64,000 nt of DNA from Naegleria gruberi (GCA_000004985.1 GG738880.1); one strand, 5' to 3'. Positions 41,172-60,956 are shown, numbered from the stretch's first letter. Translations and numbers: made by a program. Notes: generated from the letters alone by a model not told the origin.

Positions 41172-43661
41172 ATGACAAAAGTCACTCCTGTTACTACTAC
41201 AACAACTGATAAGAGACAAAACTATGGAGCCAATGATTCAGTTTCAGATATTTTCCAAGAAGAAGAAGAAGAAGAAAATGCTCAATTGATTCAATCAAAA
41301 ACTCAACCAAAACGAACCATTAATTGTCCCCTCCGTTTATTTCTCATGACAACATTGAGTATACTTATCATTGTCTGTGCCATAACTGTTTATTTAGCAG
41401 TATTTGTTGGCATGTATTCATCAGTGGACGAATTGACCAACAAGATGATCCAAACAGTTCAAGGACAAGTCACCAATTACATTGACAGATTTCTAGGAGA
41501 GTTGAAAATGTCAAGCAAACTAGCTGCTGGCCACTATAACAATGGACTCGTTGCCAAGAAAGATTACAGACAATATCTCTATCAAGGATTCAATAATTCA
41601 GGAGTTTTTGTTGGCTACTTTTTACAGGTGAATAATCATTCTGAGAGATTTTCCTATGTGATTATAAATGGAAATTTCTTGTATACCTATCAGGATAATG
41701 GATTTCCAGGACTGATTAGAGATCGAGTTAATATCTCAACTGCACAAGTAATCAAGTATAATTTTACAGTTTCGTCTGCTCCTCAAAATTTGGAAACGAC
41801 AGAGTTTTATACTTCAGCCATTTCAGAATCGAATAGTTTGGGAGTTGAGGGCGTTTTTGGAAAACCGTTTTATGTGGTTGGAGGAGCCATTAGTTTGCCA
41901 TATGCTACCAAACTTTATTCCACAATGTATCCAGTTAAAAGCTTGATTGGAATTTGTAGAGCTACCATTCCATTGTACTTGTTGTCAGAATATTTGAGTG
42001 GTGTCAAAGTTTTTCAAAAAGGATATGTCATTTTGACAGAATTGAATAGCACAATTGCAGTTGCTGGAAGTATCAAGACCACCACCGATGATGGGAGTAA
42101 CAATTTGAGTATTTTCAATTTGACACAAAATAATGCTGGTCAACTCATGAATGACATTTCAATCAATTTTAGAGGATTAGATAATATTCCTTCTAAATTT
42201 TCAATTTACAGTATTGATACCAAGTATATTGTATCAGTTTCTAATTACAAGTTTGATAATGTGTGGAGAATGTTTATTATTGCATACGATGAAGATGTGA
42301 GCTTGACAACTAATTTGAGTATTGGAATTTCAATTGGTGTCTCGATTCTTATAATAATTATTGGAATGGTATATAGTTTGATATTGAGCAAAATGATTAC
42401 TCGAACTGTTAACTATTTAGAGGAGCAATTAATGTTTGTGAAGGTGTTTGATTTGGAGAAGGTTACACTTTCGTCCAGTATCTTCAAAGAAATGAATCAG
42501 ATTATAGATAATTTACACACGACAGTATTGTGGTTGAAACAGGTAAAGCCATTTATTCCAGCCACTGTGTTTTATCACATTCAGAGCCAAAATGATGAAA
42601 ACCTTGCTGAAGATAATGAAAAAGCTCAAGATTCGAATAAGCAAACAATTCATGATAAGAATGGTGATTCAAAGAATATAGATGTGCGTGGCTCCTCTTC
42701 ACTAGATTCCAAAACGAAAAGCTCTTCACTTTCACTCAATAAGGATGCCAATTCATTATTTAAAATGGGATTGTCAAGGAAAACCTGTGCCATTCTTCAT
42801 ATCACATTCAATAAGTTTGAATTACAAACAACACATTCGGATATTTCAGTCACTCTGTCTAAGGTTTCGACCATGATTAGAAACATTGCCAATATTCATC
42901 AAGCTCACTTTCAAATCAACTCTTCTGAAGATATCATTATTGTAATCGATCAGAAATCAAATAAGAAACATCCATCAGAAATTGCACTTGAATGTGCTCT
43001 CAAAATTACTAATATCATTCATTCCACTAACAATTTACTGAAAGAAAATGATTTAAATGGTTTGGATTTCTTTATTGGAATTTCAACAAGTGATAATTCA
43101 CATGTTGGAAATATTGGATCTAATTCGTTCAGATTCTTCTCTTTCATATCAAATTCTAGAAAGATTGCAATGAATTTGGCTATTTTGGCAAGCTCACTTG
43201 GAGTTAGAATTCTCCTCGATGAAGAGACATTCAACAATACCAAGCAGAAGTTTATTACAAAACCAGTAGATAGAATATTATTGGAAGGTTCCATTCATTC
43301 TTCACAGACAAGTAACATTGCAAATGTTTATGAATTGGTCAAGGAAAAAGCTGTTGCCCAAGATGAATGGCTTTATGAGCTCGATAATTTGAATTCGAAT
43401 AAGGAACTTGAAAGTTTGAATGGTGTATTCTCGATATTTAAGGAGATTCCACAAGAGAAAATAATTCCAGAATTGGATAGTAATTTGGCATTGATTAATT
43501 CGTACCTTGAAAAATCTCCCAATGATGTTGCTGTCAGTAATTTATTGAACATTTTGGAGTATTATAAGCATGTGTGTGGAGGTGATGGTTTTGGAGAAGT
43601 GCTGACTCGTATTAGAAACTATTGCAAAAAAGTGAATTATCAGATAACAACCATGCAATAA
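41172..43661 (+). CDS. Membrane sensor with an extracellular ligand-binding-type domain and a degenerate class-III nucleotidyl-cyclase homology domain (ACG-like), paralog 1, 829 aa.
   Basis: ATG start. TM1 is LMTTLSILIIVCAITVYLAVFVGMY. An extracytoplasmic region of about 330 aa follows, then TM2 (ISIGVSILIIIIGMVYSLIL). The cytoplasmic cyclase-like blocks are CAILHITFNKF...IIIVIDQ...FFIGISTSDNSHVGNIGSNSFRFFSFISNSRKIAMNLA. It is homologous over its full length, including the C-terminal EWLYEL block, to the gene at 51189..53752. Confidence 0.55.
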   Translation: MTKVTPVTTTTTDKRQNYGANDSVSDIFQEEEEEENAQLIQSKTQPKRTINCPLRLFLMTTLSILIIVCAITVYLAVFVGMYSSVDELTNKMIQTVQGQVTNYIDRFLGELKMSSKLAAGHYNNGLVAKKDYRQYLYQGFNNSGVFVGYFLQVNNHSERFSYVIINGNFLYTYQDNGFPGLIRDRVNISTAQVIKYNFTVSSAPQNLETTEFYTSAISESNSLGVEGVFGKPFYVVGGAISLPYATKLYSTMYPVKSLIGICRATIPLYLLSEYLSGVKVFQKGYVILTELNSTIAVAGSIKTTTDDGSNNLSIFNLTQNNAGQLMNDISINFRGLDNIPSKFSIYSIDTKYIVSVSNYKFDNVWRMFIIAYDEDVSLTTNLSIGISIGVSILIIIIGMVYSLILSKMITRTVNYLEEQLMFVKVFDLEKVTLSSSIFKEMNQIIDNLHTTVLWLKQVKPFIPATVFYHIQSQNDENLAEDNEKAQDSNKQTIHDKNGDSKNIDVRGSSSLDSKTKSSSLSLNKDANSLFKMGLSRKTCAILHITFNKFELQTTHSDISVTLSKVSTMIRNIANIHQAHFQINSSEDIIIVIDQKSNKKHPSEIALECALKITNIIHSTNNLLKENDLNGLDFFIGISTSDNSHVGNIGSNSFRFFSFISNSRKIAMNLAILASSLGVRILLDEETFNNTKQKFITKPVDRILLEGSIHSSQTSNIANVYELVKEKAVAQDEWLYELDNLNSNKELESLNGVFSIFKEIPQEKIIPELDSNLALINSYLEKSPNDVAVSNLLNILEYYKHVCGGDGFGEVLTRIRNYCKKVNYQITTMQ

Positions 43662-43773
43662 ATATTTACTTATTACTCCCTGGATTGATGATGAAATAAA
43701 AACAGGCACATGCCACTACAATACAAGATTGGAAAAGATGGTCAAACAAAAGAATAATGCTGTTGAAAATCAT

Positions 43774-45640
43774 TTAATTTACAGTTTGATATAATGGTTC
43801 TGATTCCTTTGTCTCAGTAGTGGCAACACCTCTAATCAATCTGGATAATCTTGATCTGCTTACTGCCATCACGCAGAAGAGAGAACATGTTAATAACAAG
43901 ACACCCAAAAGAATTGCCAACAAGATCCAAAAGATTGTTGTCAAACTTCTTTGCTCATTGTAATTGTCCCTAATGCAAATATCAGCTTCATAATTCTTGC
44001 ATTCCCTGCACCAATTTACAGGAATGGCATCTCTTTCACAAATCGATTTAAAGCTAGTGAATGTGCAATTAAAGTCGGTGTCCTTTCCTGGTTGACATCC
44101 CTTTCCACCCAAAGATTTCAAAGTATATTCAGCGAATCTGTTATCACTATATCCTCTATTGTAAACAATCTTGATGTAAAAATCGTTAATGGTTGGTTTT
44201 TGTCCTTGGGGAACTGAATCACTTAGGTGCAATTCAACTAAAATTTGAGATCCATATGGAGGATTTTTTTGAAGCTCAACATAATCATCTGACAACTTTA
44301 AGGCAGCCATGAGTGAGAGAATACTCACATCGTGAGCACTGTAATGAATATACTTGTATGGTATTGTCTTACTGGCTCCCAGATCAGCTCCATAATTATT
44401 TGGTGGCTTTGGGGTTGATAATCCAGTCAATTTATCAATCATCTTGTTCATTTCGACAATCATGTTTTGAACAAGTGGTCCACCTCCAAGTTTACCTTGA
44501 ACTTTTCTATTGAATACCATAAATGTTGCGACGTCTCCCAATTCTTGGATCATATCCCAAATCTTGACAAGTTCTTGCAATTTCAATTGCTTGTGGGAGT
44601 ATTGAACATTTAAAAGATCATAGACCATATAAAAGTTGGCAAAATCAATAGTCTTCCAAGCAGGATACTTGAATCCAGCTTCACTCCTCAATGCTCTAAA
44701 GTATTCATCAGCAAATTTTCTATCGGAAAGTAATTTGTAGAAAGGAATTTGCTTTTGATTTTCATATGGACTGATGAATGAATTGATCATGTTCATAACA
44801 TGATTGCCTGATCCTTCCTTGAGACTATTATCAAACGGAATTTCAGTAACATTGGAAATGAAAGCCAAGGTTGGCTTGTACTTGTCAAGAATCTTGAAAA
44901 ATTCTGAACTTTGTTGATAATTTTCATTATTCAAATCAATAGTTGGACACTTTCCATAAGCACTCATCCAAATTTCATTGACATTTTCCTTAGTATTAAT
45001 TGGAATTGGTTGCATTTGATTTGGAAGAGCTCTCGCTTGTCCAGTAATTGAAATATCAGCAACTGGTCCATTTCCAGCAGGGAACATTGCTTGTGAAATA
45101 CTAAAAACTGAAAAGAGAGTTCTATCATAATCGGTAGCATAAAATCTAAAATCTCTTGGATTCCAATGAGCTGTCGTTTTCACATCACTATTTTCTGGAT
45201 AAATTAAATCGGCAATGACATTTGGATTTGGTGCTATTTTTCAATATCAATATGTAATGATAATTGATGATTAATAATAATCATGCAAACAAACCTCCAG
45301 TCTCATTAATAACTCTCGATAAATATCTTGCATTAAAATGTTGTCCAACAATATTACATTGTTGAAGACCCAATCCAGTGAGTTGTCCCTCACCAAATTC
45401 AATAGGACCCGATGCATCAAATCCTGCTGTATACGAATACTTGGCCAAATCTGTTTGCCAGTCCCACGGATCTGTCGGAACTTGATAAATAGTCACTGGA
45501 GATCGATCACAATGTCTCGACAAGACTTGTACCTGAACAATTTTACCCTCAGCGACCATCATCGTCATACTAAGGGTAGATGCCAGCAAGAGCAGCACAA
45601 TAAAGGAAAATAAATTTCCCCTCATTTTGAGTTGTTGCAT
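43774..45640 (-). CDS. Histidine acid phosphatase (lysosomal/prostatic acid phosphatase family) with a C-terminal TM anchor. Exons are 45285..45640 and 43774..45232.
   Basis: Exon 1 encodes a signal peptide and the RHGXRXP motif (VLSRHCDRSPV). It ends at a GTTTGT donor. A 52-nt intron (45233..45284) joins in frame to ORF 43774..45183 (...GAPNPNVIADLIYPENSDVKTTAHWNPRDF...), which carries the downstream HD motif (YSAHDVSILSLMAAL) and a C-terminal TM helix. Confidence 0.8.
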
Positions 45641-46194
45641 TTTTTCAAAAAGGTCTAATAGCTTACTCAATGAAATTATAGTACTACCTTAATAGTGGAA
45701 TTCAGTAAGGAACCAATTTAAGAACAGATTTGTTCTCAATTAATAATGATTCTATAAAATGAATTTATTCTTATGTTTAAGGAAATAAGGTCAATCGTTA
45801 GATTTTAGGTGAAAGAAATGAAATCTAAAGAAAAAACAAGATTTTTAAGGTTTTAAAATCATTGGAGAAAGATGTCTAGCCAGCAGGAATTTCCAGACTT
45901 CTTTTTCAAGGTAGTTCAACTCCAGCTATTTTGATATGAGCTGATGAAATATCTTCTATCTCAATTAATTTAACAGATATTGAAATAATAAATTGTGTAG
46001 AGAGAGAATATATCACTGGGAATCTATCTTCTTCTAAAGAATGTTTCTCATCCCTTATTCATTGAATATAATAGTAAAGTATCACAAATATTAAATGCAA
46101 AATGTCCAATTGTGAAAATTACAGGAAAAGATAATTCTCTGGTAGAGAATGGATGAATGACATGCTGTTCGTGATGTTTTAGTGAGAAGTCAAT

Positions 46195-47039
46195 ATCCAC
46201 ATCATGTGAAAAACAATAAAAACATGAAAATATAAGATATCCACGATTTTCACAAATTATGCTACAAGACTCGAAATTATACATTCAACAACATAATAAA
46301 CATTATGAATTGTTGTTTTATTGTTGTTTGATTTGTAATTGGGCTATGAATCAACTCTGTAGCATGAAATATCGGAACTTGGTAAATTGACAACATGATG
46401 AAAATCTGATAATAAATACCTCTCCTACCTACTATTGACCATTCCGAACAATAATACATTGACACTTTTCCAACTTGTCCAGTAGATCCAGCAGTGATGA
46501 TGAATTTAGTGAAAATTTTGACATTTCACCAAAATTACATTGCTAAAAATTAATTTCCACAAATACTATTATTATATTGATGGAAAACAATAATGATGAT
46601 GGTTGGTGAATGATCCGATGATGGAACACCAACTTGGGATTTTCCAGCATGAAAAATAAATTCCAATTTCATGATGATAATGAACCAATAAAAATTACTA
46701 TTATTATTACTATATAGATCATGTTGAGATGATGATGTGAAAGTTTGGTGGTTTCATGATGTAAAACCACTCCGAAAATCATGATGTCCTCCTTGAGTAG
46801 AAGAATGTTGAATATTTTTTTATGAAGTTTTTGTGAGAATGGCGTAGCAGTTGTATTATTGGTGAAGTTATGGTCTATGTCTTTCAAAATTAAGTCCATC
46901 ATGATGATAATCCACTAATAAAATTACTACTATTCAGATCATGTTGAGGGGTTCGATTTATCTCTTGTTTTACTGTAACAAGTATTGCGCCCAAAATTGT
47001 TAAGGTACTTCCCGTGTGCTAAACTCAAGCTCCAAAAAA
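46195..47039 (+). repeat. Copy A of a duplicated ~0.85-kb non-coding segment that lies upstream of the histidine-kinase 5' region.
   Basis: About 97-98% identical to 48291..49274 (copy B). Copy B carries an extra ~140 bp at about 48517..48656. Both copies run from CATCATGTGAAAA... to ...GATTATTTAGCGAGTAA. Confidence 0.85.
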
Positions 47040-48240
47040 ATGTTTGAAAATAAGCCACTAACAAACATGCAAGATATTAACTCTGGAAAAGATTATTTAG
47101 CGAGTAAAAGAAGGAAGGAATGATGTTATCGGAGAAGGAATTTATCAGTGATGATATTGAAATTAATGATAACACAAAAGCTACATCTTCAAAAACACTT
47201 TTCAATATTTCATCACCTTCGTTTAGGAAGAGATTGGAACTGGGAGAGGATGTGCCATTCTCCAATAATTTTAATAATAATGTAAATAATTCAAACAATA
47301 TTGAAAAACAACAAACGGAAACAAGTTCATCATCAACTACAACAACACCGAGACCATCATTCATCAAAGCACCTTCATTACCTTCATTATCTTTTCCTAT
47401 TAAGAAAAGTTCATCAGTTTCTGATGATGTTAAAGAGATTGAATCTAAATTGAATGCTAATTGCAAGAATGGTGTGGAAAGGGCAATGTTATACATGTTG
47501 GCAAACCGATTGAATGTCAAGTTGTTGATTGGAGTTCTATTTGTGTTATCTTTTTTAAATAGCCTTAAAACATTAAGTTTTAATCAGAATATTTTGAGTA
47601 TTGTCCTATTTCTTGTTCAATTATATACTAACTATCATAGGAAGAATATTGATATGGCCATGTCCTATGAGGAGACTTTTAAAAGATTGGATGGGCAGGA
47701 AATGCAGAGAATGGTTGTTTCCTTGGTTCTCTACACAACCAGAATACTATTCCTTCCCGAACATAACATGATGTTTATTCCAGTTCTTTTCCTTTGGTTT
47801 GCTGGAGCTAACAAGTTGTACATTTACTCAACTTTTCATGGGCTATTCCCAACATTTTACACAAGCTTTCTCTACATTATGTGTGCTTGCTACCATTCGT
47901 ACCATGAGTATATTTTGAATGGATACTCTGCTCGATTCATTGGAATCATTGAGCAATATACAGTTATGACTGGCTGTGTTTGGATGTTCTCCTATTATTT
48001 TATTAATGTGACTGGTTATTTGAAACACAAGGTAGATAAATTGCAAGACACTAGAAAAAGGTTGGAATCAGCATTAGACGCTCGTAGTCGTTTCATGGCC
48101 CATATTTCACACGAGTTTAGATGTCCAATAATGTCAAGTATAGGGTGCTTGGAGTTGTTAAAAGAAACTCCATTGAATGAAAAACAAAATGATTTGGTTG
48201 ACACAATTGTTTCTTCAAATAGTGTTCTTTTGCTTTGATG
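47040..48240 (+). CDS. Hybrid sensor histidine kinase, 5' part, copy 1, with a multi-TM sensor region and the HisKA H-box. It is truncated by the N-gap at 48241, and a 1-nt homopolymer frameshift near 47110 lies upstream of the ORF-track start 47120.
   Basis: H-box is SRFMAHISHEFRCPIMSSIGCLELLKETPLNEKQNDLVDTIV. Several hydrophobic helices lie upstream. Copy 2 (49275..) is in frame from MFENKPLTNMQD, whereas copy 1 has AGTAAAAGAAGG against AGTAAGAAGG in copy 2. Confidence 0.6.
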
Positions 48241-48290
48241 NNNNNNNNNNNNNNNNNNNNNNNNNNNNNNNNNNNNNNNNNNNNNNNNNN
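48241..48290. other. Assembly gap (50 N).
   Basis: A run of N. Flanking sequence shows the contig break falls inside the duplicated unit. Confidence 0.99.
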
Positions 48291-49274
48291 CATCATGTGA
48301 AAACAATAAAAACATGAAAATATAAGATATCCACGATTTTCACAAATTTTGTTACAAGACTCGAAATTATACATTCAACAACATAATAAACATTATGAAT
48401 TGTTGTTTTATTGTTGTTTGATTTGTAATTGGGCTATGAATCAACTCTGGTAGCATCAAATATCGGAACTTGGTAAATTGACAACATGATGAAAATCTGA
48501 TAATAAATATGATGTTTATTATCTATTTAAATAGTAGTACTAAAAGACATGATTCAAGTTGGTGAAGTACATGTTGAGTTATGGTCCATGTACTTTTTAA
48601 AAATTCACATGTACCTATCCCTATCATAACTTGACCAAAATTGATAAGAGAAAGTTCTCCTACCTACTATTGACCATTCCGAACAATAATACATTGACAC
48701 TTTTCCAACTTGTCCAGTAGATCCAGCAGTGATGATGAATTTAGTGAAAATTTTGACATTTCACCAAAATTACATTGCTAAAAATTAATTTCCACAAATA
48801 CTATTATTATATTGATGGAAAACAATAATGATGATGGTTGGTGAATGATCCGATGATGGAACACCAACTTGGGATTTTCCAGCATGAAAAATAAATTCCA
48901 ATTTCATGATGATAATGAACCAATAAAAATTACTATTATTATTACTATATAGATCATGTTGAGATGATGATGTGAAAGTTTGGTGGTTTCATGATGTAAA
49001 ACCACTCCGAAAATCATGATGTCCTCCTTGAGTAGAAGAATGTTGAATATTTTTTTATGAAGTTTTTGTGAGAATGGCGTAGCAGTTGTATTATTGGTGA
49101 AGTTATGGTCTATGTCTTTCAAAATTAAGTCCATCATGATGATAATCCACTAATAAAATTACTACTATTCAGATCATGTTGAGGGGTTCGATTTATCTCT
49201 TGTTTTACTGTAACAAGTATTGCGCCCAAAATTGTTAAGGTACTTCCCGTGTGCTAAACTCAAGCTCCAAAAAA
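48291..49274 (+). repeat. Copy B of the duplicated upstream non-coding segment, with a ~140-bp insertion relative to copy A.
   Basis: It aligns with 46195..47039. The extra block is at about 48517..48656. Confidence 0.85.
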
Positions 49275-49734
49275 ATGTTTGAAAATAAGCCACTAACAAA
49301 CATGCAAGATATTAACTCTGGAAAAGATTATTTAGCGAGTAAGAAGGAAGGAATGATGTTATCGGAGAAGGAATTTATCAGTGATGATATTGAAATTAAT
49401 GATAACACAAAAGCTACTTCTTCAAAAACACTTTTCAATATTTCATCACCTTCGTTTAGGAAGAGATTGGAACTGGGAGAGGATGTACATGTGCCATTCT
49501 CCAATAATTTTAATAATAATGTAAATAATTCAAACAATATTGAAAAACAACAAACGGAAACAAGTTCATCATCAACTACAACAACACCGAGACCATCATT
49601 CATCAAAGCACCATCATTACCTTCATTATCTTTTCCTATTAAGAAAAGTTCATCAGTTTCTGATGATGTTAAAGAGATTGAATCCAAATTGAATGCTAAT
49701 TGCAAGAATGGTGTGGAAAGGGCAATGTTATACA
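49275..49734 (+). CDS. Hybrid sensor histidine kinase, 5' part, copy 2, truncated by the N-gap at 49735.
   Basis: About 98% identical to 47040..47500. It has an in-frame ATG at 49275 and a 6-nt indel relative to copy 1 (GEDVHVPF against GEDVPF). The ORF-track ORF 49251..50996 spans the gap artificially. Confidence 0.6.
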
Positions 49735-50119
49735 NNNNNNNNNNNNNNNNNNNNNNNNNNNNNNNNNNNNNNNNNNNNNNNNNNNNNNNNNNNNNNNNNN
49801 NNNNNNNNNNNNNNNNNNNNNNNNNNNNNNNNNNNNNNNNNNNNNNNNNNNNNNNNNNNNNNNNNNNNNNNNNNNNNNNNNNNNNNNNNNNNNNNNNNNN
49901 NNNNNNNNNNNNNNNNNNNNNNNNNNNNNNNNNNNNNNNNNNNNNNNNNNNNNNNNNNNNNNNNNNNNNNNNNNNNNNNNNNNNNNNNNNNNNNNNNNNN
50001 NNNNNNNNNNNNNNNNNNNNNNNNNNNNNNNNNNNNNNNNNNNNNNNNNNNNNNNNNNNNNNNNNNNNNNNNNNNNNNNNNNNNNNNNNNNNNNNNNNNN
50101 NNNNNNNNNNNNNNNNNNN
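49735..50119. other. Assembly gap (385 N).
   Basis: A run of N. Confidence 0.99.
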
Positions 50120-50156
50120 ATGGCAAGTGTCAAGACCTGTCACATTGATGAAAAAA

Positions 50157-51187
50157 ATGAATAGAGAAGATGTTCTTCTAATGTTGCATGATAAACCGAA
50201 TGAAAATGCAAATAGCTTGTTTGAACTATTGAAAATTAGAATGATGACAAGCAAAACCTCTAAAATTTCAAATCAATTTACAAAAGCAATTCGTATTGAT
50301 AATTGTAAACATGTGGAAACGCTTGGAACGCCAAATAAGTATGGAAAGCCTGCACGAGGACTCAACAACAAATTCTTCTTCAATATTCCGATGGATATTA
50401 CTATTTCATACAGGCACGAAACAATTTATGTTTGCGACTACAAAAATTACAAAATTCAAACATTTGATTTGGCTACCAAACAATTTATCACTTCAATTTC
50501 GACAATTCCGACGTGCTTTATCTACATTCAAGTGGACGATCAATTTGATCAATTATTTGGATTAGGATTTGATCGTTCCTTATATGTGGGAAAATTTGAG
50601 AAACCAAGTAAGGGAAGAGGTGGATTAAGTTTTGCAAGTTTGGAACGATTGAAAATGTCAGTAATGGAAGAATGTGGTCAATTTTCAAAGATTTGTTTGG
50701 ATAGAGAAATGGGGAGATTATACTTTATGGAAAATTCAAGGCAATTCAGAATTGGAGTATTGAGAACGATGGATTTGAGTATTGTAAATTTGATGCAAGT
50801 TGATTTTGATGAACAAGATCCAAGTGATGGGGACAAAATATTGTATTTGGATGGAAGAGGCAATTTATGTATTCTTTCGTTCCCTCTTGTTAAAAGCATT
50901 CCCTTGTCAATTGTGAATTCAAGGAAACAAGCTCACTTTGGCCAATTTGAAACATTATTGAGTTTACAGAAAAGATTTCCAATGTGTTCAAGATAGTAAC
51001 TGAGAAATCATCTGGGAATATATTAATTTCTATACCAATTCCTTTAACATCAACTCCTATTACCATTCAAAAAGGTCATCATCAAACATGGATCTTTCAT
51101 TCTGCTTCTGGAATGGAAATTAATGAAATTGAAGGTGAATTATTAATTGTAGAAAAGAAATCCTTCACTATTAAAATATTCAAATAA
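50157..51187 (+). pseudogene. NHL-repeat (beta-propeller) protein gene, copy 1. It carries a 1-nt frameshift near 50958 relative to copy 2, which is either pseudogenisation or a homopolymer error.
   Basis: NHL-like blades are IYVCDYKNYKIQTFDLATKQFITSI, GRLYFMENSRQFRIGVL and GELLIVEKKSFTIKIF. Copy 1 reads CATTATTGAGTTT where copy 2 reads CATTATTTGAGTTT. The reading frame continues in ORF 50984..51187. Confidence 0.5.
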
Positions 51188-51188
51188 T

Positions 51189-53752
51189 TTACATGTAATC
51201 TACAACAGTTGTATGAGGTGGATAAACTTCCTGAACTTGATTGTTGACAGTTGAATAATATTGCTTGAACAATTCAAATCTGGTGTTCTTTCCAGAAGAT
51301 TCCAATATGTGAGCAAAATACCCAATGCTCTTAATCAATTTTCTGGCAGGATACGATTTGATGTATTCATCATTTTGAACAACAGCTGTCAAATTAGCTT
51401 CATAATCTCTGAGCATGTTAATAATTTCATCATTATTCAACCCTTCAAAGTTCTTGTCATAGAAGAAATATTTTCCAAACTCTGAGAATTTCTGATTTGC
51501 CTTTTGCTGTTCCAACTCGTACATCCATTCTTGAAATTTTGTTACAATTTTTGTAAACCTTTCAACTTACCATCACCTTCAATAGTATTTTCCTTTTCAA
51601 CTTCATAAACAACCGAAACTTTTCCTTCTTGTGAATTTTCAACAACTTCCATCAACTTGTCAACTGGTCTGGATACAAACTTTTTCAGAGTTGACTCATC
51701 CATTGTTCCCTCATCAGCCAACACATCACATCTCAAGTCGTCTGCCAAAAAAGCAAGTTTTTCAGCATTGATAGGAACTGAACCAACAACAGAAAATGTT
51801 CTAAATGAACTAGTTCCCAAATTTCCTGCATAGCACTTTCCACTACTGACTCCAATGGCACATCTGATATGGGTTTTCGATGTTTCATTGATTGTTACTA
51901 ATAATTTTCTCAATTTCAAAGCAGCTTCCAAAGCCAAAACATTTGACGATTTTCGACCATTTCCTTCCACAGACGAAACATAAATCTGATAATCATCCAC
52001 AGTAATAACTTGAAAATCACCTTGTATAGATTTAGAAACAGCACTCAACCCAGAAACAATCTTTGAAAATATGTGTCCAATATCAGCAACATTCAAATCT
52101 GTTGAAAAATCAATTAATTTGATTCTTACAACTGCTCCTTGTTTACAATTCAGACCAATTTTGAAAAGAGAATTTCCCACTTCTTGAACTTTGGATGCCA
52201 TTGAGGAAGTTCTTGAACTATTGTTACTAAAATGACGACTTCCATGAGATTCCAAATCTATTGAGGCAGCATCACTATTCGAAACTGGGTGATTCTTATG
52301 TTTCTTTGATTTGGTGTTGGCTTGGGATTCATCTGTTTTTTTGGTATTTTCTTCTTTCATATTTCTCAATTGTAAAAATACACTTTCTGGAATAAATGTC
52401 TTAATTTCGTTTAACCATACTGTCATTTCATATAAATAAAGGTAAATCAAATCGACTTCTTTAAACTTGCTTGCAGTAATATTCACCTGATCTAGTTCCA
52501 TAGTTTTGATTTTCATAAATTCTCTTTCTAAAATTGTAAATGGATTTGTGACAATGTGTCCAATAGTGATAGACATGATTACACCAACAATGATAATCAA
52601 AATGGTAATACCAACAGATACTCCAGTTGTAATATTTGTTACCATTTCAACTTCTTGCTTATCAACCACAATGAAAACATTCCATTCCAAGTTGACCAAT
52701 GTGAAATTTGACTTTACAATGAAAAAACCATCAAAGTCAATAAAAATTGGTGTGTTAGTCCACCCCTTATAATTCTGATAAACCCTGTTCAATAAACTTC
52801 CAGAACCCTTATCAATCAAGTCAAATAACGAAACTCTAGAACTTCCATCCAAAGCAGTAGTATTGATATTTCCACCAATGACAAGATTATTGGTTTCTGC
52901 CACAATCACATAACCACTAGTGAGTACTTGTACTGTTTTCAAAAAGCTTTCAATAATTCTCAATGAAATATTCGTTTTTGTAATGCCAACTACCTTTTTA
53001 ATTCCATTGCTATAATAGGTAGGATCATATAATTTGGCACAATAGTAAGTTGTATAACTTGGATTGCCAGGAATTGCATAAGGAATGCCGAATACACCAT
53101 CTAATCCCAAAGAGGAATAAAAACCAAAAGTAGTTTTCCAATAACTTTGAGCATTCACTTCATAATTAGGAGATGCCTTGACCAGTGACTTGGCAGTTGT
53201 GTTAGGAGTTGAAGTATCCAATGAAATTGCATATAACATAAATTCAGTCGTTGGTGTATGATACCAAACAACAATTTCATTGGGTGGAGCTCCGTAAACA
53301 TTGACACTGTCAAGACTGTCATTAAAAAATAAACCAATTCCGTATGGCTTGAAAGTGTTGTAATATTTGTAAAGATAGGCAAGCGATGGTTGACGAGGAA
53401 CAAGTCCTAAATTGTAATCCTCAGCCATTGACTCAGTTGCTGAAATATAAGGTTTCAGTTGACCGTTCATATAGTTCAGTACTGAACCACTGATGGTATG
53501 CATCAATTGAGTTGATAAGGAACTCAGGGCTTCTCGAGATCCTATGAAAGAAGATAACCAAATTAAAATTGAACAGCAAACTAATAGAGAAGTGATTAGA
53601 ATAATGATAAATGTTCTAACCGAAATGATTCCACCACATGTTGTTGGTTTGATTGGAGCTATTTTGGTTTTCTCCTCGGTTTCGTCTTCGTTGAGGAGAG
53701 GATTTTGTTCTTTGAGACTGTCTAGGGATGCTGTGAATGGTTGTATTTTCAT
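51189..53752 (-). CDS. Membrane sensor with a class-III nucleotidyl-cyclase homology domain (ACG-like), paralog 2. Exons are 51580..53752 and 51189..51538.
   Basis: TM1 is IIILITSLLVCCSILIWLSSFIG. An extracytoplasmic domain follows, then TM2 (VSVGITILIIIVGVIMSITIG). The cyclase-like blocks are VVRIKLIDFSTDL, QVITVDDYQIYVS and IRCAIGVSSGKCYAGNLGTSSFRTFSVVGSVPINAEKLA. A GTAAGT donor at 51579 and a TTTCAAG acceptor at 51539 give a 41-nt intron. It joins in frame to ORF 51189..51524, whose start (EWMYELEQQ) matches the EWLYELDNL tail block of paralog 1. Confidence 0.6.
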
Positions 53753-55002
53753 GATTAGTTTTGAATAGTTTTTTTAAAAATTTGAAATCATTTGAAAGGT
53801 AGTTTGATTCAATCTCGTTTGAAAATTTAGAAATCTCACCACATATGCGTTTATGGTGGAGATAACAACAATTACCTGTTTGAATATTTCCTTAACTTCT
53901 CCATTCTATTCACAACCCATCATATACTGTTAACTTTAAACGAAAATTTACAGCGCTCATTTAGAATGATTCAACTCTGTTCCCATCACTTGATGTTAAA
54001 CAACCAAATGTTTTTTCTACTTTGAAAGAGAATCTTCCTTAAAATTCGATAGGTGACAGAAATAAAAGGGTGTAGGTGTAAAAACGTCTCTTGTATCAAT
54101 AACGACCTGAGAGAACAATAGGTGACAGAAAAGAAAAAGATGTTGTTGCATTTCAGCTATCTCCCTTGATTTTTTTTGCTATAGTAAATTCGTTTATTTA
54201 AACATAGTTGTTTGGTAAATTACTTAGTGAAGATTCATATCATTGATTATATTTCTTATCGTCTATTAATGATGTAAATATGATGTTTTCATTTCTTATA
54301 TCTGTGGTCAGGTTCTCGGCGCATTTTTGTGATGCTTCCAAAAAACATGGAATGCTCCCAAAGCTGATTTACCTGTAGGGGTAATTGGATGCGCCAATAA
54401 CACCGATTTATTACTTAAGCAAATTCACTCAACTTCAACAAAGCGTATCTCAATAACAACACTGGATGTTAGAGAAACATACCGTATGGTCATTATTAAT
54501 TATGTTAACAATCATAATATCAAGTTTGTTACAGATTTGGCTCTTTACTTATCGAGAAAAGTGATTTCAAAATTTTCATATGTGGTAGTAAGACGAGCAT
54601 GTTTTCTTGGTTAATACAAATAACTGATATTCAATAAAACAGAATCTTGTAGAAAACATCAATTAGAACAAGAATAATAAATAATATTTTTATTTCACTA
54701 AGTATTAAATTTAATATTTCCTTTTTTGTAAGGAGCATTGCAAAAATACGGGAAAAACATTTCCACAGATATTGATAGATATTTAAAGGTTAAGGATAAC
54801 GGTCAAATTGAGTTGAATGGAAGTGAATATTGAGATATGTATACTACTGTTGAAGAAGTATCACCTTCACTATAATTACTGACATGAGTATAACAATTGA
54901 ACATATGATTCCTGTATCAATAATTCATTATTCAATGATTTTGATATGATGGGGTTGGATTAGATATCCACTTTTGGGTTTGGATCCCATGTCAACCCCT
55001 AT

Positions 55003-58000
55003 NNNNNNNNNNNNNNNNNNNNNNNNNNNNNNNNNNNNNNNNNNNNNNNNNNNNNNNNNNNNNNNNNNNNNNNNNNNNNNNNNNNNNNNNNNNNNNNNNN
55101 NNNNNNNNNNNNNNNNNNNNNNNNNNNNNNNNNNNNNNNNNNNNNNNNNNNNNNNNNNNNNNNNNNNNNNNNNNNNNNNNNNNNNNNNNNNNNNNNNNNN
55201 NNNNNNNNNNNNNNNNNNNNNNNNNNNNNNNNNNNNNNNNNNNNNNNNNNNNNNNNNNNNNNNNNNNNNNNNNNNNNNNNNNNNNNNNNNNNNNNNNNNN
55301 NNNNNNNNNNNNNNNNNNNNNNNNNNNNNNNNNNNNNNNNNNNNNNNNNNNNNNNNNNNNNNNNNNNNNNNNNNNNNNNNNNNNNNNNNNNNNNNNNNNN
55401 NNNNNNNNNNNNNNNNNNNNNNNNNNNNNNNNNNNNNNNNNNNNNNNNNNNNNNNNNNNNNNNNNNNNNNNNNNNNNNNNNNNNNNNNNNNNNNNNNNNN
55501 NNNNNNNNNNNNNNNNNNNNNNNNNNNNNNNNNNNNNNNNNNNNNNNNNNNNNNNNNNNNNNNNNNNNNNNNNNNNNNNNNNNNNNNNNNNNNNNNNNNN
55601 NNNNNNNNNNNNNNNNNNNNNNNNNNNNNNNNNNNNNNNNNNNNNNNNNNNNNNNNNNNNNNNNNNNNNNNNNNNNNNNNNNNNNNNNNNNNNNNNNNNN
55701 NNNNNNNNNNNNNNNNNNNNNNNNNNNNNNNNNNNNNNNNNNNNNNNNNNNNNNNNNNNNNNNNNNNNNNNNNNNNNNNNNNNNNNNNNNNNNNNNNNNN
55801 NNNNNNNNNNNNNNNNNNNNNNNNNNNNNNNNNNNNNNNNNNNNNNNNNNNNNNNNNNNNNNNNNNNNNNNNNNNNNNNNNNNNNNNNNNNNNNNNNNNN
55901 NNNNNNNNNNNNNNNNNNNNNNNNNNNNNNNNNNNNNNNNNNNNNNNNNNNNNNNNNNNNNNNNNNNNNNNNNNNNNNNNNNNNNNNNNNNNNNNNNNNN
56001 NNNNNNNNNNNNNNNNNNNNNNNNNNNNNNNNNNNNNNNNNNNNNNNNNNNNNNNNNNNNNNNNNNNNNNNNNNNNNNNNNNNNNNNNNNNNNNNNNNNN
56101 NNNNNNNNNNNNNNNNNNNNNNNNNNNNNNNNNNNNNNNNNNNNNNNNNNNNNNNNNNNNNNNNNNNNNNNNNNNNNNNNNNNNNNNNNNNNNNNNNNNN
56201 NNNNNNNNNNNNNNNNNNNNNNNNNNNNNNNNNNNNNNNNNNNNNNNNNNNNNNNNNNNNNNNNNNNNNNNNNNNNNNNNNNNNNNNNNNNNNNNNNNNN
56301 NNNNNNNNNNNNNNNNNNNNNNNNNNNNNNNNNNNNNNNNNNNNNNNNNNNNNNNNNNNNNNNNNNNNNNNNNNNNNNNNNNNNNNNNNNNNNNNNNNNN
56401 NNNNNNNNNNNNNNNNNNNNNNNNNNNNNNNNNNNNNNNNNNNNNNNNNNNNNNNNNNNNNNNNNNNNNNNNNNNNNNNNNNNNNNNNNNNNNNNNNNNN
56501 NNNNNNNNNNNNNNNNNNNNNNNNNNNNNNNNNNNNNNNNNNNNNNNNNNNNNNNNNNNNNNNNNNNNNNNNNNNNNNNNNNNNNNNNNNNNNNNNNNNN
56601 NNNNNNNNNNNNNNNNNNNNNNNNNNNNNNNNNNNNNNNNNNNNNNNNNNNNNNNNNNNNNNNNNNNNNNNNNNNNNNNNNNNNNNNNNNNNNNNNNNNN
56701 NNNNNNNNNNNNNNNNNNNNNNNNNNNNNNNNNNNNNNNNNNNNNNNNNNNNNNNNNNNNNNNNNNNNNNNNNNNNNNNNNNNNNNNNNNNNNNNNNNNN
56801 NNNNNNNNNNNNNNNNNNNNNNNNNNNNNNNNNNNNNNNNNNNNNNNNNNNNNNNNNNNNNNNNNNNNNNNNNNNNNNNNNNNNNNNNNNNNNNNNNNNN
56901 NNNNNNNNNNNNNNNNNNNNNNNNNNNNNNNNNNNNNNNNNNNNNNNNNNNNNNNNNNNNNNNNNNNNNNNNNNNNNNNNNNNNNNNNNNNNNNNNNNNN
57001 NNNNNNNNNNNNNNNNNNNNNNNNNNNNNNNNNNNNNNNNNNNNNNNNNNNNNNNNNNNNNNNNNNNNNNNNNNNNNNNNNNNNNNNNNNNNNNNNNNNN
57101 NNNNNNNNNNNNNNNNNNNNNNNNNNNNNNNNNNNNNNNNNNNNNNNNNNNNNNNNNNNNNNNNNNNNNNNNNNNNNNNNNNNNNNNNNNNNNNNNNNNN
57201 NNNNNNNNNNNNNNNNNNNNNNNNNNNNNNNNNNNNNNNNNNNNNNNNNNNNNNNNNNNNNNNNNNNNNNNNNNNNNNNNNNNNNNNNNNNNNNNNNNNN
57301 NNNNNNNNNNNNNNNNNNNNNNNNNNNNNNNNNNNNNNNNNNNNNNNNNNNNNNNNNNNNNNNNNNNNNNNNNNNNNNNNNNNNNNNNNNNNNNNNNNNN
57401 NNNNNNNNNNNNNNNNNNNNNNNNNNNNNNNNNNNNNNNNNNNNNNNNNNNNNNNNNNNNNNNNNNNNNNNNNNNNNNNNNNNNNNNNNNNNNNNNNNNN
57501 NNNNNNNNNNNNNNNNNNNNNNNNNNNNNNNNNNNNNNNNNNNNNNNNNNNNNNNNNNNNNNNNNNNNNNNNNNNNNNNNNNNNNNNNNNNNNNNNNNNN
57601 NNNNNNNNNNNNNNNNNNNNNNNNNNNNNNNNNNNNNNNNNNNNNNNNNNNNNNNNNNNNNNNNNNNNNNNNNNNNNNNNNNNNNNNNNNNNNNNNNNNN
57701 NNNNNNNNNNNNNNNNNNNNNNNNNNNNNNNNNNNNNNNNNNNNNNNNNNNNNNNNNNNNNNNNNNNNNNNNNNNNNNNNNNNNNNNNNNNNNNNNNNNN
57801 NNNNNNNNNNNNNNNNNNNNNNNNNNNNNNNNNNNNNNNNNNNNNNNNNNNNNNNNNNNNNNNNNNNNNNNNNNNNNNNNNNNNNNNNNNNNNNNNNNNN
57901 NNNNNNNNNNNNNNNNNNNNNNNNNNNNNNNNNNNNNNNNNNNNNNNNNNNNNNNNNNNNNNNNNNNNNNNNNNNNNNNNNNNNNNNNNNNNNNNNNNNN

Positions 58001-59675
58001 NNNNNNNNNNNNNNNNNNNNNNNNNNNNNNNNNNNNNNNNNNNNNNNNNNNNNNNNNNNNNNNNNNNNNNNNNNNNNNNNNNNNNNNNNNNNNNNNNNNN
58101 NNNNNNNNNNNNNNNNNNNNNNNNNNNNNNNNNNNNNNNNNNNNNNNNNNNNNNNNNNNNNNNNNNNNNNNNNNNNNNNNNNNNNNNNNNNNNNNNNNNN
58201 NNNNNNNNNNNNNNNNNNNNNNNNNNNNNNNNNNNNNNNNNNNNNNNNNNNNNNNNNNNNNNNNNNNNNNNNNNNNNNNNNNNNNNNNNNNNNNNNNNNN
58301 NNNNNNNNNNNNNNNNNNNNNNNNNNNNNNNNNNNNNNNNNNNNNNNNNNNNNNNNNNNNNNNNNNNNNNNNNNNNNNNNNNNNNNNNNNNNNNNNNNNN
58401 NNNNNNNNNNNNNNNNNNNNNNNNNNNNNNNNNNNNNNNNNNNNNNNNNNNNNNNNNNNNNNNNNNNNNNNNNNNNNNNNNNNNNNNNNNNNNNNNNNNN
58501 NNNNNNNNNNNNNNNNNNNNNNNNNNNNNNNNNNNNNNNNNNNNNNNNNNNNNNNNNNNNNNNNNNNNNNNNNNNNNNNNNNNNNNNNNNNNNNNNNNNN
58601 NNNNNNNNNNNNNNNNNNNNNNNNNNNNNNNNNNNNNNNNNNNNNNNNNNNNNNNNNNNNNNNNNNNNNNNNNNNNNNNNNNNNNNNNNNNNNNNNNNNN
58701 NNNNNNNNNNNNNNNNNNNNNNNNNNNNNNNNNNNNNNNNNNNNNNNNNNNNNNNNNNNNNNNNNNNNNNNNNNNNNNNNNNNNNNNNNNNNNNNNNNNN
58801 NNNNNNNNNNNNNNNNNNNNNNNNNNNNNNNNNNNNNNNNNNNNNNNNNNNNNNNNNNNNNNNNNNNNNNNNNNNNNNNNNNNNNNNNNNNNNNNNNNNN
58901 NNNNNNNNNNNNNNNNNNNNNNNNNNNNNNNNNNNNNNNNNNNNNNNNNNNNNNNNNNNNNNNNNNNNNNNNNNNNNNNNNNNNNNNNNNNNNNNNNNNN
59001 NNNNNNNNNNNNNNNNNNNNNNNNNNNNNNNNNNNNNNNNNNNNNNNNNNNNNNNNNNNNNNNNNNNNNNNNNNNNNNNNNNNNNNNNNNNNNNNNNNNN
59101 NNNNNNNNNNNNNNNNNNNNNNNNNNNNNNNNNNNNNNNNNNNNNNNNNNNNNNNNNNNNNNNNNNNNNNNNNNNNNNNNNNNNNNNNNNNNNNNNNNNN
59201 NNNNNNNNNNNNNNNNNNNNNNNNNNNNNNNNNNNNNNNNNNNNNNNNNNNNNNNNNNNNNNNNNNNNNNNNNNNNNNNNNNNNNNNNNNNNNNNNNNNN
59301 NNNNNNNNNNNNNNNNNNNNNNNNNNNNNNNNNNNNNNNNNNNNNNNNNNNNNNNNNNNNNNNNNNNNNNNNNNNNNNNNNNNNNNNNNNNNNNNNNNNN
59401 NNNNNNNNNNNNNNNNNNNNNNNNNNNNNNNNNNNNNNNNNNNNNNNNNNNNNNNNNNNNNNNNNNNNNNNNNNNNNNNNNNNNNNNNNNNNNNNNNNNN
59501 NNNNNNNNNNNNNNNNNNNNNNNNNNNNNNNNNNNNNNNNNNNNNNNNNNNNNNNNNNNNNNNNNNNNNNNNNNNNNNNNNNNNNNNNNNNNNNNNNNNN
59601 NNNNNNNNNNNNNNNNNNNNNNNNNNNNNNNNNNNNNNNNNNNNNNNNNNNNNNNNNNNNNNNNNNNNNNNNNNN
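55003..59675. other. Large assembly gap (4,673 N).
   Basis: A run of N. The poly-X ORFs 54974..59707 and 54992..59698 are artefacts of translating N. Confidence 0.99.
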
Positions 59676-60605: not shown

Positions 60606-60906
60606 GTGGTTTGGGTTTGGGTTTGGGTTTGGGTTTGGGTTTGGGTTTGGGTTTGGGTTTGGGTTTGGGTTTGGGTTTGGGTTTGGGTTTGGGTTTGGGT
60701 TTGGGTTTGGGTTTGGGTTTGGGTTTGGGTTTGGGTTTGGGTTTGGGTTTGGGTTTGGGTTTGGGTTTGGGTTTGGGTTTGGGTTTGGGTTTGGGTTTGG
60801 GTTTGGGTTTGGGTTTGGGTTTGGGTTGGGTTTGGGTTTGGGTTTGGGTTTGGGTTTGGGTTTGGGTTTGGGTTTGGGTTTGGGTTTGGGTTTGGGTTTG
60901 GGTTAA
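60606..60906 (+). repeat. (GGGTTT)n hexanucleotide array of about 50 units with one GGGTT variant. Telomere-like, G-rich strand on the plus strand, and it ends in a gap.
   Basis: Perfect 6-bp periodicity with a single 5-mer variant near 60826. The three 'ORFs' over it (GLGL, WVWV, PKPK/TQTQ) are artefacts of the open frames of a hexamer repeat. Confidence 0.9.
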
Positions 60907-60956
60907 NNNNNNNNNNNNNNNNNNNNNNNNNNNNNNNNNNNNNNNNNNNNNNNNNN
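60907..60956. other. Assembly gap (50 N).
   Basis: A run of N. Confidence 0.99.

What the first reader, a model, noticed from the sequence alone, without database searches (positions are those of the whole stretch)
41172..53752. Two ACG-like membrane sensors with degenerate class-III cyclase domains in convergent orientation, bracketing the duplicated histidine-kinase block
The gene at 41172..43661 (+) and the spliced gene at 51189..53752 (-) are full-length paralogs. Each has an N-terminal TM, an extracytoplasmic domain of about 330 aa, a second TM, and a cytoplasmic region that aligns with the adenylyl/guanylyl cyclase homology domain. Paralog 2 retains VVRIKLIDFSTDL...QVITVDDYQ...IRCAIGVSSGKCYAGNLGTSSFRTFSVVGSVPINAEK. 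Paralog 1 has lost the first metal-binding Asp (FNKF), and paralog 2 substitutes the conserved catalytic Arg with Lys (INAEK where canonical cyclases have NxASR) while keeping the Asn. So one or both may be pseudo-cyclases or receptors. They point toward each other. Between them lie a histidine acid phosphatase, two copies of a hybrid histidine-kinase 5' half and an NHL gene. This is an inverted-paralog arrangement that can drive rearrangement, and it looks like a sensor-gene neighbourhood.
Basis: partly seen in the sequence, partly recalled or inferred. Interest (0 to 1): 0.6.

Follow-up and report, generated by a model that had tools for sequence, protein, structure and literature searches.

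The report
Two sensor receptors with dead cyclase domains
Two distantly related Naegleria gruberi membrane-receptor genes each pair an outside ligand-sensing domain with an inside domain that has the adenylate/guanylate cyclase fold but lacks the residues needed for catalysis; this holds across their whole gene family, and the surrounding "gene arrangement" is mostly chance plus an assembly artefact.

Summary
The window is Naegleria gruberi. Both genes are real, and public models match 100%. They are full-length paralogs (28% identity, E 2e-101) in convergent orientation.

Each encodes TM1, a dCache-like ectodomain, TM2, a HAMP-like hairpin, a transducer-like helix, a disordered linker, a class III cyclase-homology domain (CHD) and a C-terminal helical domain.

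Pfam PF00211 alone fails: paralog 2 scores 18.5 bits (cut-off 21.9) and paralog 1 has no hit. The CHD is nevertheless firmly supported:
- family profile vs PDB, E 1.2e-9, cyclases only

Both paralogs lack the first metal Asp (K545 and T545), as do 63 of 63 close relatives. The substrate Lys and the Asn/Arg pair are also lost. I therefore read them as dCache–HAMP receptors with a probably non-catalytic CHD.

They are not mutual best hits and sit in separate deep clades. They share no DNA similarity, so they offer no recombination substrate.

The "duplicated histidine-kinase block" is a 1.44-kb contig flanked by N gaps, 98% identical to the sequence upstream, so probably an assembly artefact. 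The "NHL" gene has no Pfam hit. The neighbourhood is not conserved in N. lovaniensis.

The parts
41172..43661 (+). Paralog 1: single-exon gene, 829 aa (public N. gruberi 'predicted protein', P0011)
   Evidence: ORF. Translation. 100% match to P0011.
41331..41411 (+). Paralog 1 TM1 (about residues 54-80)
   Evidence: Kyte-Doolittle peak of 2.73. Part of the long helix 54-123 in the AF2 model.
41412..42320 (+). Paralog 1 extracytoplasmic double-PDC (dCache-like) domain, about residues 81-383
   Evidence: AF2 pLDDT is about 90, showing a long helix followed by two alpha/beta modules. Foldseek hits dCache ligand-binding domains 3li8 and 5ave (TMt 0.64-0.66) and dCache chemoreceptor models at 1.4e-10. 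dCache_1 hits occur in 16 of 48 relatives, best 4.7e-12.
42321..42554 (+). Paralog 1 TM2 plus HAMP-like helix-connector-helix (about residues 384-461)
   Evidence: Kyte-Doolittle peak of 2.65. Helices 373-424 and 439-461 in the model. Aligns with the HAMP of canonical cousins P0073 and P0156. No Pfam HAMP hit.
42555..42752 (+). Paralog 1 transducer-like helix 'FIPATVFYHI' followed by a disordered S/N/K-rich linker (residues 462-527)
   Evidence: pLDDT is below 50 for residues 479-527. This is an insertion of about 50 aa relative to canonical cousins.
42753..43352 (+). Paralog 1 degenerate class III cyclase-homology domain (residues 528-727). Positions: T545 at metal-Asp-1, E586 at metal-Asp-2, I582 at substrate Lys, S657 at substrate Asp/Thr, K664 at Asn, N668 at Arg.
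   Evidence: Foldseek TMt 0.80-0.81 to Cya2 and CyaB. Residue register.
43353..43661 (+). Paralog 1 C-terminal helical domain with the invariant 'DEWxYEL' motif (residues 728-829, plus stop codon)
   Evidence: Four helices at pLDDT about 85. No significant Pfam or PDB match.
51189..53752 (-). Paralog 2: two-exon gene, 840 aa, join(53752..51571, 51529..51189). The public model NAEGRDRAFT_80465 starts at Met109.
51530..51570 (-). Paralog 2 intron, 41 nt, GT..AG
   Evidence: Sequence. The spliced product matches P0001 at 100% across the junction.
53540..53620 (-). Paralog 2 TM1 (about residues 45-71); missing from the public gene model
   Evidence: Kyte-Doolittle peak of 2.88. Aligns with TM1 of the homologues.
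52628..53539 (-). Paralog 2 extracytoplasmic dCache-like domain (about residues 72-375)
   Evidence: Full-length alignment to paralog 1. dCache_1 hits in relatives.
52343..52627 (-). Paralog 2 TM2, HAMP-like hairpin and transducer-like helix 'FIPESVFLQL' (residues 376-470)
52175..52342 (-). Paralog 2 low-complexity linker (residues 471-526)
   Evidence: An insertion relative to canonical cousins. The homologous segment in paralog 1 is disordered.
51572..52174 (-). Paralog 2 degenerate class III cyclase-homology domain (residues 527-727). Positions: K545 at metal-Asp-1, D586 at metal-Asp-2, V582 at substrate Lys, S654 at substrate Asp/Thr, I661 at Asn, K665 at Arg.
51189..51529 (-). Paralog 2 exon 2: C-terminal helical domain (residues 728-840, plus stop codon)
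43774..45670 (-). Histidine acid phosphatase gene (two ORF pieces, His_Phos_2). A neighbour, not part of the system.
   Evidence: 3e-14 and 6.6e-06, covering complementary parts of the profile.
47120..48238 (+). Histidine kinase N-terminal half, cut inside HisKA by the N gap at 48241-48290
48291..49734 (+). Second copy of the histidine-kinase upstream/5' region. It is the entire contig between two N gaps and is 98% identical to 46200-47495, so it is probably an assembly artefact.

Best explanation
Both genes encode members of a large heterolobosean (Naegleria/Willaertia) family of dimeric-type two-TM receptors.

Their architecture, from N to C terminus, is:
1. a short cytoplasmic tail
2. TM1
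3. an extracellular dCache-like double-PDC ligand-binding domain
4. TM2
5. a HAMP-like hairpin
6. a cyclase-transducer-like helix
7. a 50-60 aa disordered linker
8. a class III (IIIb-like) cyclase-homology domain
9. a family-specific helical C-terminal domain

The architecture and fold are shown. The proposed mechanism is inferred: a small extracellular ligand binds the dCache domain, and the signal passes through TM2 and the HAMP-like hairpin to the cytoplasmic part.

The family has lost the first metal-binding Asp, the substrate Lys and the transition-state Asn/Arg. The CHD therefore most likely does not make cAMP or cGMP. It more likely serves as a dimerisation, nucleotide-binding or protein-interaction output module, that is, a pseudo-cyclase receptor.

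The two genes are ancient paralogs that happen to lie 7.5 kb apart in convergent orientation. The arrangement itself has no demonstrated function.
For: - Paralogy: E 2e-101.
- Organism and family.
- CHD by sequence: the family profile hits only class III cyclases in the PDB. The best are the sAC C2 domain at 1.2e-9 and CyaB at 4e-7.
- dCache: Foldseek hits to 3li8, 5ave and chemoreceptor models. Pfam dCache_1 is found in 16 of 48 relatives.
- Register: fixed by canonical cousins P0073 and P0156 ('FTDI...GD...NLASR') in an HMM alignment and an independent MAFFT alignment. It agrees with the beta1/alpha1 and alpha4 boundaries of the model.
- Census: 0 of 63 close relatives have Asp at the first metal position (K15, R14, T9, H5 and others). 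The substrate-Lys position is I/V in 48 of 62. The Arg position is R in only 2 of 61.
- Function retained: intact ORFs, with invariant motifs (LFKxGL, GNLG, R) conserved between Naegleria and Willaertia.
- Established knowledge (mine): both metal-binding Asp residues are required for two-metal catalysis in class III cyclases.
Against: - No activity or binding data exist; inactivity is inferred from residues only.
- Some mycobacterial cyclases with unorthodox substrate residues are active (my knowledge).
- The phosphate-binding Arg is retained (R in 55 of 62). The second metal Asp/Glu is retained in 42 of 61 close relatives, including D586 in paralog 2. A residual or altered nucleotide chemistry therefore cannot be excluded.
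- I could not superpose model coordinates on a ligand-bound cyclase. The register rests on alignments and secondary-structure boundaries.
- HAMP is not detected by Pfam.
Confidence: 0.6

Rival explanations
1. They are C2-like subunits. The degenerate CHD heterodimerises with a catalytically competent cyclase subunit, as in mammalian C1/C2, sAC C1/C2 or sGC alpha/beta. It thereby contributes to, or regulates, one active site.
For: - The best PDB sequence match is the C2 domain of soluble adenylyl cyclase, which also lacks the metal Asp residues.
- The beta4-beta5 'GNLG...R' arm is invariant.
- Naegleria encodes at least 81 cyclases that could act as partners (PMC9928731).
Against: - A C2-type subunit must supply the substrate Lys and the Asn/Arg pair. 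Here these are V/I, I/K and K/N.
- No family member has the first metal Asp, so no active site can form within the family.
- Each protein has its own dCache/HAMP, as homodimeric receptors do.
- No partner has been identified.
Confidence: 0.17
2. They are active but non-canonical nucleotide cyclases, for example with the Lys/Arg at the first metal position replacing one metal ion.
For: - The CHD fold is intact with high model confidence.
- The phosphate-binding Arg and often the second acidic residue are conserved.
- The first metal position is basic (K/R) in 29 of 63 relatives, a non-random pattern.
Against: - The metal Asp, the substrate Lys, the Asn and the Arg are all lost together.
- I know of no active class III cyclase that lacks the first metal Asp.
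- The long disordered insertion separates the transducer helix from the CHD.
Confidence: 0.13
3. The convergent pair together with the histidine kinase and phosphatase forms a functional or recombinogenic 'sensor island', produced by an inverted duplication.
For: Two family members, a histidine kinase and a phosphatase lie within 12.6 kb.
Against: - The two genes share no nucleotide similarity.
- They fall in different deep clades, and paralog 2's closest N. gruberi relative (P0003, 47%) is on another scaffold.
- The loci of the nearest N. lovaniensis relatives carry no second family gene, histidine kinase or phosphatase within 10 kb, and show no synteny.
- The histidine-kinase duplication is bounded by N gaps.
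- With about 80-100 cyclase-like genes in a genome of about 41 Mb (genome size from my knowledge), roughly 5-6% of them would have a neighbour within 12 kb by chance. This is an inference.
Confidence: 0.05

Closest known systems
Cache1-TM-HAMP-class III cyclase subfamily of protists ('pan-eukaryotic' NCIII subfamily; Ebenezer et al. 2019, PMC6366073) and its bacterial-type canonical counterparts (P0073, P0142, P0145, P0156 here)
   Same: Same domain order: TM, dCache, TM, HAMP, transducer helix, CHD, C-terminal helices. The proteins are alignable along their length. That paper states its subfamily is closely related to N. gruberi genes.
   Different: The canonical cousins keep 'FTDI', 'K..GD' and 'NLASR', and the CHD follows the transducer helix directly. 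The window genes and their close family lack these residues and carry a 50-60 aa disordered insertion.
C2 domain of soluble adenylyl cyclase (ADCY10) and C2-type domains of pseudo-heterodimeric cyclases
   Same: It is the best sequence match (E 1.2e-9). It also lacks the first metal Asp and has Thr/Ser at the substrate position, as class IIIb enzymes do (the class assignment is from my knowledge).
   Different: sAC C2 keeps the substrate Lys and the Asn/Arg pair, and it is fused to a competent C1. The window proteins have a single CHD and lack those residues too.
Dictyostelium ACG
   Same: Same gross topology: TM, extracellular sensor, TM, a single cytoplasmic CHD.
   Different: ACG is an active osmosensing cyclase whose ectodomain is not dCache and which has no HAMP (my knowledge; ACG was not compared here). 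In the window genes the ectodomain is dCache-like, no CHASE hit was found, a HAMP-like hairpin is present, and the catalytic residues are lost.
Class III adenylyl cyclase-like ATP-binding protein of P. aeruginosa (PDB 6yii), and by analogy degenerate GGDEF/EAL receptors such as LapD
   Different: 6yii is a soluble bacterial transcriptional regulator. No nucleotide binding has been shown for the Naegleria proteins.
Bacterial dCache-HAMP chemoreceptors (for example B. subtilis McpB/McpC)
   Same: They are the top Foldseek hits for the full-length paralog 1 model over the sensor, TM and HAMP part (E 1.4e-10).
   Different: Their output module is a methyl-accepting coiled coil, not a CHD.

Membership tests
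Class III nucleotidyl cyclase catalytic domain (CHD, Pfam PF00211) | Single-sequence Pfam hit at or above the gathering score | tested here: not met
   Paralog 2 scores 18.5 bits against a cut-off of 21.9 (E 0.0017). Paralog 1 has no hit. Among relatives, 19 of 48 hit at E<=0.01, best 9.7e-8.
Class III nucleotidyl cyclase catalytic domain (CHD, Pfam PF00211) | Homology and fold of the CHD | tested here: met
Class III nucleotidyl cyclase (as an enzyme) | First metal-binding Asp at the end of beta1 ('FxDIxGFT') | tested here: not met
   The position is K545 in paralog 2 and T545 in paralog 1. None of 63 close relatives has Asp there.
Class III nucleotidyl cyclase (as an enzyme) | Second metal-binding Asp in the beta2-beta3 turn ('GD') | tested here: inconclusive
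   The position is D586 in paralog 2 and E586 in paralog 1. Among close relatives it is D in 31 and E in 11 of 61.
Class III nucleotidyl cyclase (as an enzyme) | Substrate-specifying Lys/Glu and Asp/Thr/Cys | tested here: not met
   The Lys position is V582 in paralog 2 and I582 in paralog 1. The second position is Ser in both (S654, S657), resembling the Thr of class IIIb.
Class III nucleotidyl cyclase (as an enzyme) | Transition-state Asn and Arg on helix alpha4 ('NxxxR') | tested here: not met
   Paralog 2 has I661 and K665, with its Asn662 displaced by +1. Paralog 1 has K664 and N668.
Class III nucleotidyl cyclase (as an enzyme) | cAMP or cGMP synthesis | not testable with these tools
   This needs an enzyme assay.
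dCache_1 extracellular sensor (PF02743) | Pfam hit, or a double-PDC fold placed between two TM helices | tested here: met
   The two window proteins have no Pfam hit of their own, and the profile against PDB sequences found nothing. However, 16 of 48 relatives hit dCache_1, best 4.7e-12. The paralog 1 model also matches dCache domains 3li8 and 5ave and dCache chemoreceptors. For paralog 2 this is inferred from the full-length alignment.
HAMP (PF00672) | Pfam hit, or a helix-connector-helix immediately after TM2 with the Pro and acidic motifs | tested here: inconclusive
   There is no Pfam HAMP hit in any of the 48 members. The model shows the expected helix-connector-helix. It has a near-invariant Pro and an invariant Glu, and it aligns with the HAMP region of canonical cousins.
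Dictyostelium ACG-type cyclase | ACG-type (non-dCache) ectodomain with an active CHD and no HAMP | tested here: not met
   No CHASE hit was found in any member. The ectodomain is dCache-like, a HAMP-like hairpin is present and the catalytic residues are lost. No direct comparison with the ACG sequence was made.
Recent inverted duplication / recombinogenic inverted repeat | Nucleotide similarity between the arms, and the two copies being each other's closest relatives | tested here: not met
   The best blastn match is 53 nt at 74%. Paralog 2 is closest to P0003 at 47%, on another scaffold. The two fall in different clades of the NJ tree.

The most novel reading that the evidence does not exclude
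The window genes may represent a large, so far undescribed class of eukaryotic pseudo-cyclase receptors. In these dCache-HAMP sensors the cyclase-fold domain would have been repurposed family-wide, across Naegleria and Willaertia. Similar degenerate HAMP-CHD modules occur in Pharyngomonas, Entosiphon, Colponema and other protists. The repurposed domain would act as a non-catalytic nucleotide-binding or protein-interaction output. This would parallel degenerate GGDEF/EAL receptors in bacteria. It would also mean that part of the celebrated 'cyclase expansion' of Naegleria is not cyclases at all.
Probability: 0.4. Interest if true: 0.6.

Novelty: new variant of a known kind. Interest (0 to 1): 0.38.

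Why it matters
Naegleria genomes are reported to carry 80-100 or more adenylate/guanylate cyclases, and this is read as an unusually rich cAMP/cGMP sensory system. A sizeable subfamily lacks the catalytic machinery: at least 60 clusters at 50% identity, including these two genes. If so, those counts overstate cyclic-nucleotide output. A different, unknown signalling output would then be attached to dCache ligand sensors.

This is directly testable by enzyme assays, nucleotide binding and back-mutation (K545D and others).

The practical points are more modest. The public model NAEGRDRAFT_80465 lacks its first TM helix. The region 48.2-50.1 kb of this scaffold is unreliable.

Tried and rejected
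- Single-sequence searches (Pfam, and phmmer against PDB sequences) gave only marginal cyclase signals. A family profile was needed.
- The third homologous-protein search, with alignment A1, returned nothing new.
I re-ran it with exon 1 only.
- A profile of the ectodomain plus HAMP against PDB sequences found nothing significant. Only the fold search identified dCache.
- The C-terminal helical domain had no significant match in Pfam or PDB sequences. Its identity stays unknown, although the C-terminal helices of canonical cousins suggest common descent (an impression only).
- A synteny test against N. lovaniensis found no shared neighbours.
- The afdb50 fold library was unavailable.
- Literature searches for 'pseudo-cyclase' or inactive CHD in Naegleria found nothing relevant.
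- I rejected the pseudogene reading because the ORFs are intact and the motifs are conserved across genera.
- I rejected the reading that the Asp in 'LIDF' is the metal ligand. It aligns with the Gly of 'GFT' and is not conserved: N in 23, G in 16 and D in 10 of 59.

Full report
ORIGIN AND GENE MODELS

The window has about 33% G+C and several runs of N. Both genes match Naegleria gruberi proteins at 100% on one 416-kb scaffold.

Paralog 1 is a single exon at 41172..43661 (+), encoding 829 aa, and is identical to the public 'predicted protein' P0011.

Paralog 2 is join(53752..51571, 51529..51189) on the minus strand, encoding 840 aa with a 41-nt GT..AG intron. The public model NAEGRDRAFT_80465 (P0001, 732 aa) equals residues 109-840, including the splice junction.

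THE OBSERVATION

The two proteins align over their whole length at 28% identity, E 2e-101. No further copy lies in the window. Each has exactly two strongly hydrophobic segments, enclosing about 300 residues. They are convergent.

IS THE CYTOPLASMIC REGION A CYCLASE DOMAIN?

Stronger methods say yes:
- An 11-sequence profile of the region hits only class III cyclases among 177,635 PDB sequences. The best are the C2 domain of soluble adenylyl cyclase (1.2e-9), CyaB (4e-7) and OaPAC (2e-6).
- An AlphaFold model of paralog 2 residues 518-727 (pLDDT 83.6, pTM 0.81) matches cyclase catalytic domains. Foldseek gives E 3e-12.
- A full-length model of paralog 1 (48-sequence alignment, pLDDT 81.3) gives TM-scores of 0.80-0.81 to Cya2 and CyaB.

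REST OF THE ARCHITECTURE

The paralog 1 model shows a long TM1/stalk helix, two alpha/beta (PDC) modules, TM2 continuing into a helix-connector-helix, a further helix, a disordered stretch (479-527), the CHD, and four C-terminal helices.

Foldseek matches dCache chemoreceptor models (1.4e-10) and the dCache ligand-binding domains 3li8 and 5ave. Pfam dCache_1 is found in 16 of 48 relatives, best 4.7e-12, and Guanylate_cyc in 19 of 48.

HAMP is not detected by Pfam. The topology, a near-invariant Pro, an invariant Glu and the alignment to canonical cousins nevertheless fit HAMP. I rate HAMP as likely but not proven.

The C-terminal domain, with its invariant DEWxYEL motif, has no significant match.

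CATALYTIC RESIDUES

The exhaustive profile search returned 124 clusters at E<=1e-30 and 1,438 at E<=1e-10. A few of the hits look like canonical cyclases with the same sensor/HAMP front end: P0073, P0142, P0145 and P0156, carrying 'FTDI', 'K..GD' and 'NLASR'. These fix the register, both in an HMM alignment and in an independent MAFFT alignment. The register also agrees with the strand and helix boundaries of the model.

| Canonical position | Paralog 2 | Paralog 1 |
|---|---|---|
| First metal Asp | K545 | T545 |
| Second metal Asp | D586 | E586 |
| Substrate Lys | V582 | I582 |
| Substrate Asp/Thr | S654 | S657 |
| Transition-state Asn | I661 (its Asn662 is one residue out of register) | K664 |
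| Transition-state Arg | K665 | N668 |

The D of 'LIDF' aligns with the Gly of 'GFT'.

The loss is family-wide. None of 63 close relatives has Asp at the first metal site (K15, R14, T9, H5 and others). The Lys position is I/V in 48 of 62, and Arg is kept in 2 of 61. By contrast the phosphate-contacting Arg (55 of 62) and the GNLG arm are conserved.

There is a second difference from the canonical cousins. A disordered low-complexity insertion of 50-60 aa separates the transducer-like helix ('F/YxPxxV...') from the CHD.

INTERPRETATION

The sensor, TM and HAMP-like front end is the standard module of bacterial-type receptors. The output domain has the cyclase fold but lacks the residues that every characterised class III cyclase uses for two-metal catalysis (my knowledge of the family).

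I therefore commit to a dCache-HAMP receptor with a non-catalytic CHD, at confidence about 0.6. The CHD would act in dimerisation, nucleotide binding or partner recruitment. The PDB entry 6yii ('class III adenylyl cyclase-like ATP-binding protein') is a precedent for such use of the fold.

The rivals are:
- A C2-like regulatory subunit of a heterodimeric cyclase. The best sequence match is sAC C2, but the residues a C2 must contribute are also missing.
- An unorthodox active enzyme.

Neither rival can be excluded without assays.

THE ARRANGEMENT

The two genes are not mutual best hits. Paralog 2's nearest N. gruberi relative is P0003 (47%), on another scaffold. Paralog 1's nearest relatives are N. 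lovaniensis proteins at 35-38%. A neighbour-joining tree puts the two in different deep clades, and paralog 2's clade includes Willaertia sequences.

At the DNA level there is no similarity; the best match is 53 nt at 74%. The pair therefore cannot act as an inverted repeat for homologous recombination.

The loci of the closest N. lovaniensis relatives (P0012, P0004) contain no second family member, no histidine kinase and no histidine phosphatase within 10 kb, and show no synteny.

Naegleria has at least 81 cyclase-like genes (PMC9928731) and N. gruberi has 24 histidine kinases (PMC6324907). Such proximity is therefore expected by chance for a few percent of these genes (an inference).

THE GENES IN BETWEEN

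The histidine acid phosphatase is confirmed as two exons, both hitting His_Phos_2.

The histidine kinase ORF at 47120..48238 reaches the HisKA domain and is cut by the N gap at 48241-48290.

The 'second copy' is 48291-49734, exactly the sequence between two N gaps. It is 98% identical to 46200-47495 apart from a short indel region. This is the signature of an uncollapsed allelic or redundant contig placed in a scaffold gap, not of a biological duplication.

The ORF after the second gap has no Pfam hit, so the 'NHL' label is unsupported.

COMPARISON WITH WHAT IS KNOWN

The Cache1-TM-HAMP-cyclase architecture has been described in protists as closely related to N. gruberi genes (PMC6366073). UniRef already auto-labels many members, including paralog 2's public model P0001, as 'Guanylate cyclase domain-containing protein'. 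Paralog 1 (P0011) is labelled only 'Predicted protein'.

I did not find any report of the family-wide loss of the catalytic residues.

'ACG-like' holds only for gross topology.

I class the finding as a new variant of a known kind. Interest is moderate at 0.38. The genomic-arrangement part is ordinary or artefactual. The pseudo-cyclase part is a testable and somewhat surprising qualification of the Naegleria 'cyclase expansion'.

Noticed in passing
window 53429-53752 (-): The public model NAEGRDRAFT_80465 (P0001, 732 aa) starts at Met109 of the ORF. It therefore lacks the N-terminal tail and TM1, which all homologues have. The upstream ATG at 53752 gives the complete protein.
   Followed up: yes
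window 48241-48290, 49735-50119, 55003-59675, 60907-60956, 62933-62982: There are five runs of N (scaffold gaps), including one of 4.7 kb. The large 'ORFs' listed at 54974..59707 on both strands are artefacts of translating N.
   Followed up: partly
window 47120-48238 (+) and 50120-50996 (+): The histidine kinase is cut inside HisKA by a gap, and no HATPase or receiver part is present in the window. The ORF after the second gap (291 aa) has no Pfam hit, so the kinase's 3' half may be missing from the assembly.
   Followed up: partly
proteins P0073, P0142, P0145, P0156 (metagenome/eukaryote representatives, not in the window): These look like canonical cyclases (FTDI, K..GD, NLASR) with the same dCache-TM-HAMP front end and no linker insertion. 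They are plausible active cousins or ancestors of the degenerate family. P0142 has a low-complexity N-terminus that looks eukaryotic.
   Followed up: partly
proteins P0085, P0116, P0127, P0132 (Apiculatamorpha, Entosiphon, Pharyngomonas, Colponema): Similarly degenerate HAMP-CHD modules, with different N-terminal regions, occur in distant protist lineages. Some still carry 'GD'-like turns but lack the first metal Asp. The phenomenon may be much wider than Heterolobosea.
   Followed up: partly
family-wide, first metal-Asp column (paralog 2 K545): The lost metal-binding Asp is replaced by Lys or Arg in 29 of 63 close relatives. This is a non-random preference for a basic residue at a former cation site, and it is unexplained.
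   Followed up: no
window 38407-40239 (+): The upstream neighbour is a 610-aa ORF with only a weak RING-finger hit (20.5 bits, below the cut-off).
   Followed up: no
window 60001-64000: GC skew is strongly positive here (0.30-0.36), compared with values mostly within about +/-0.2 elsewhere in the window. The cause was not examined.
   Followed up: no
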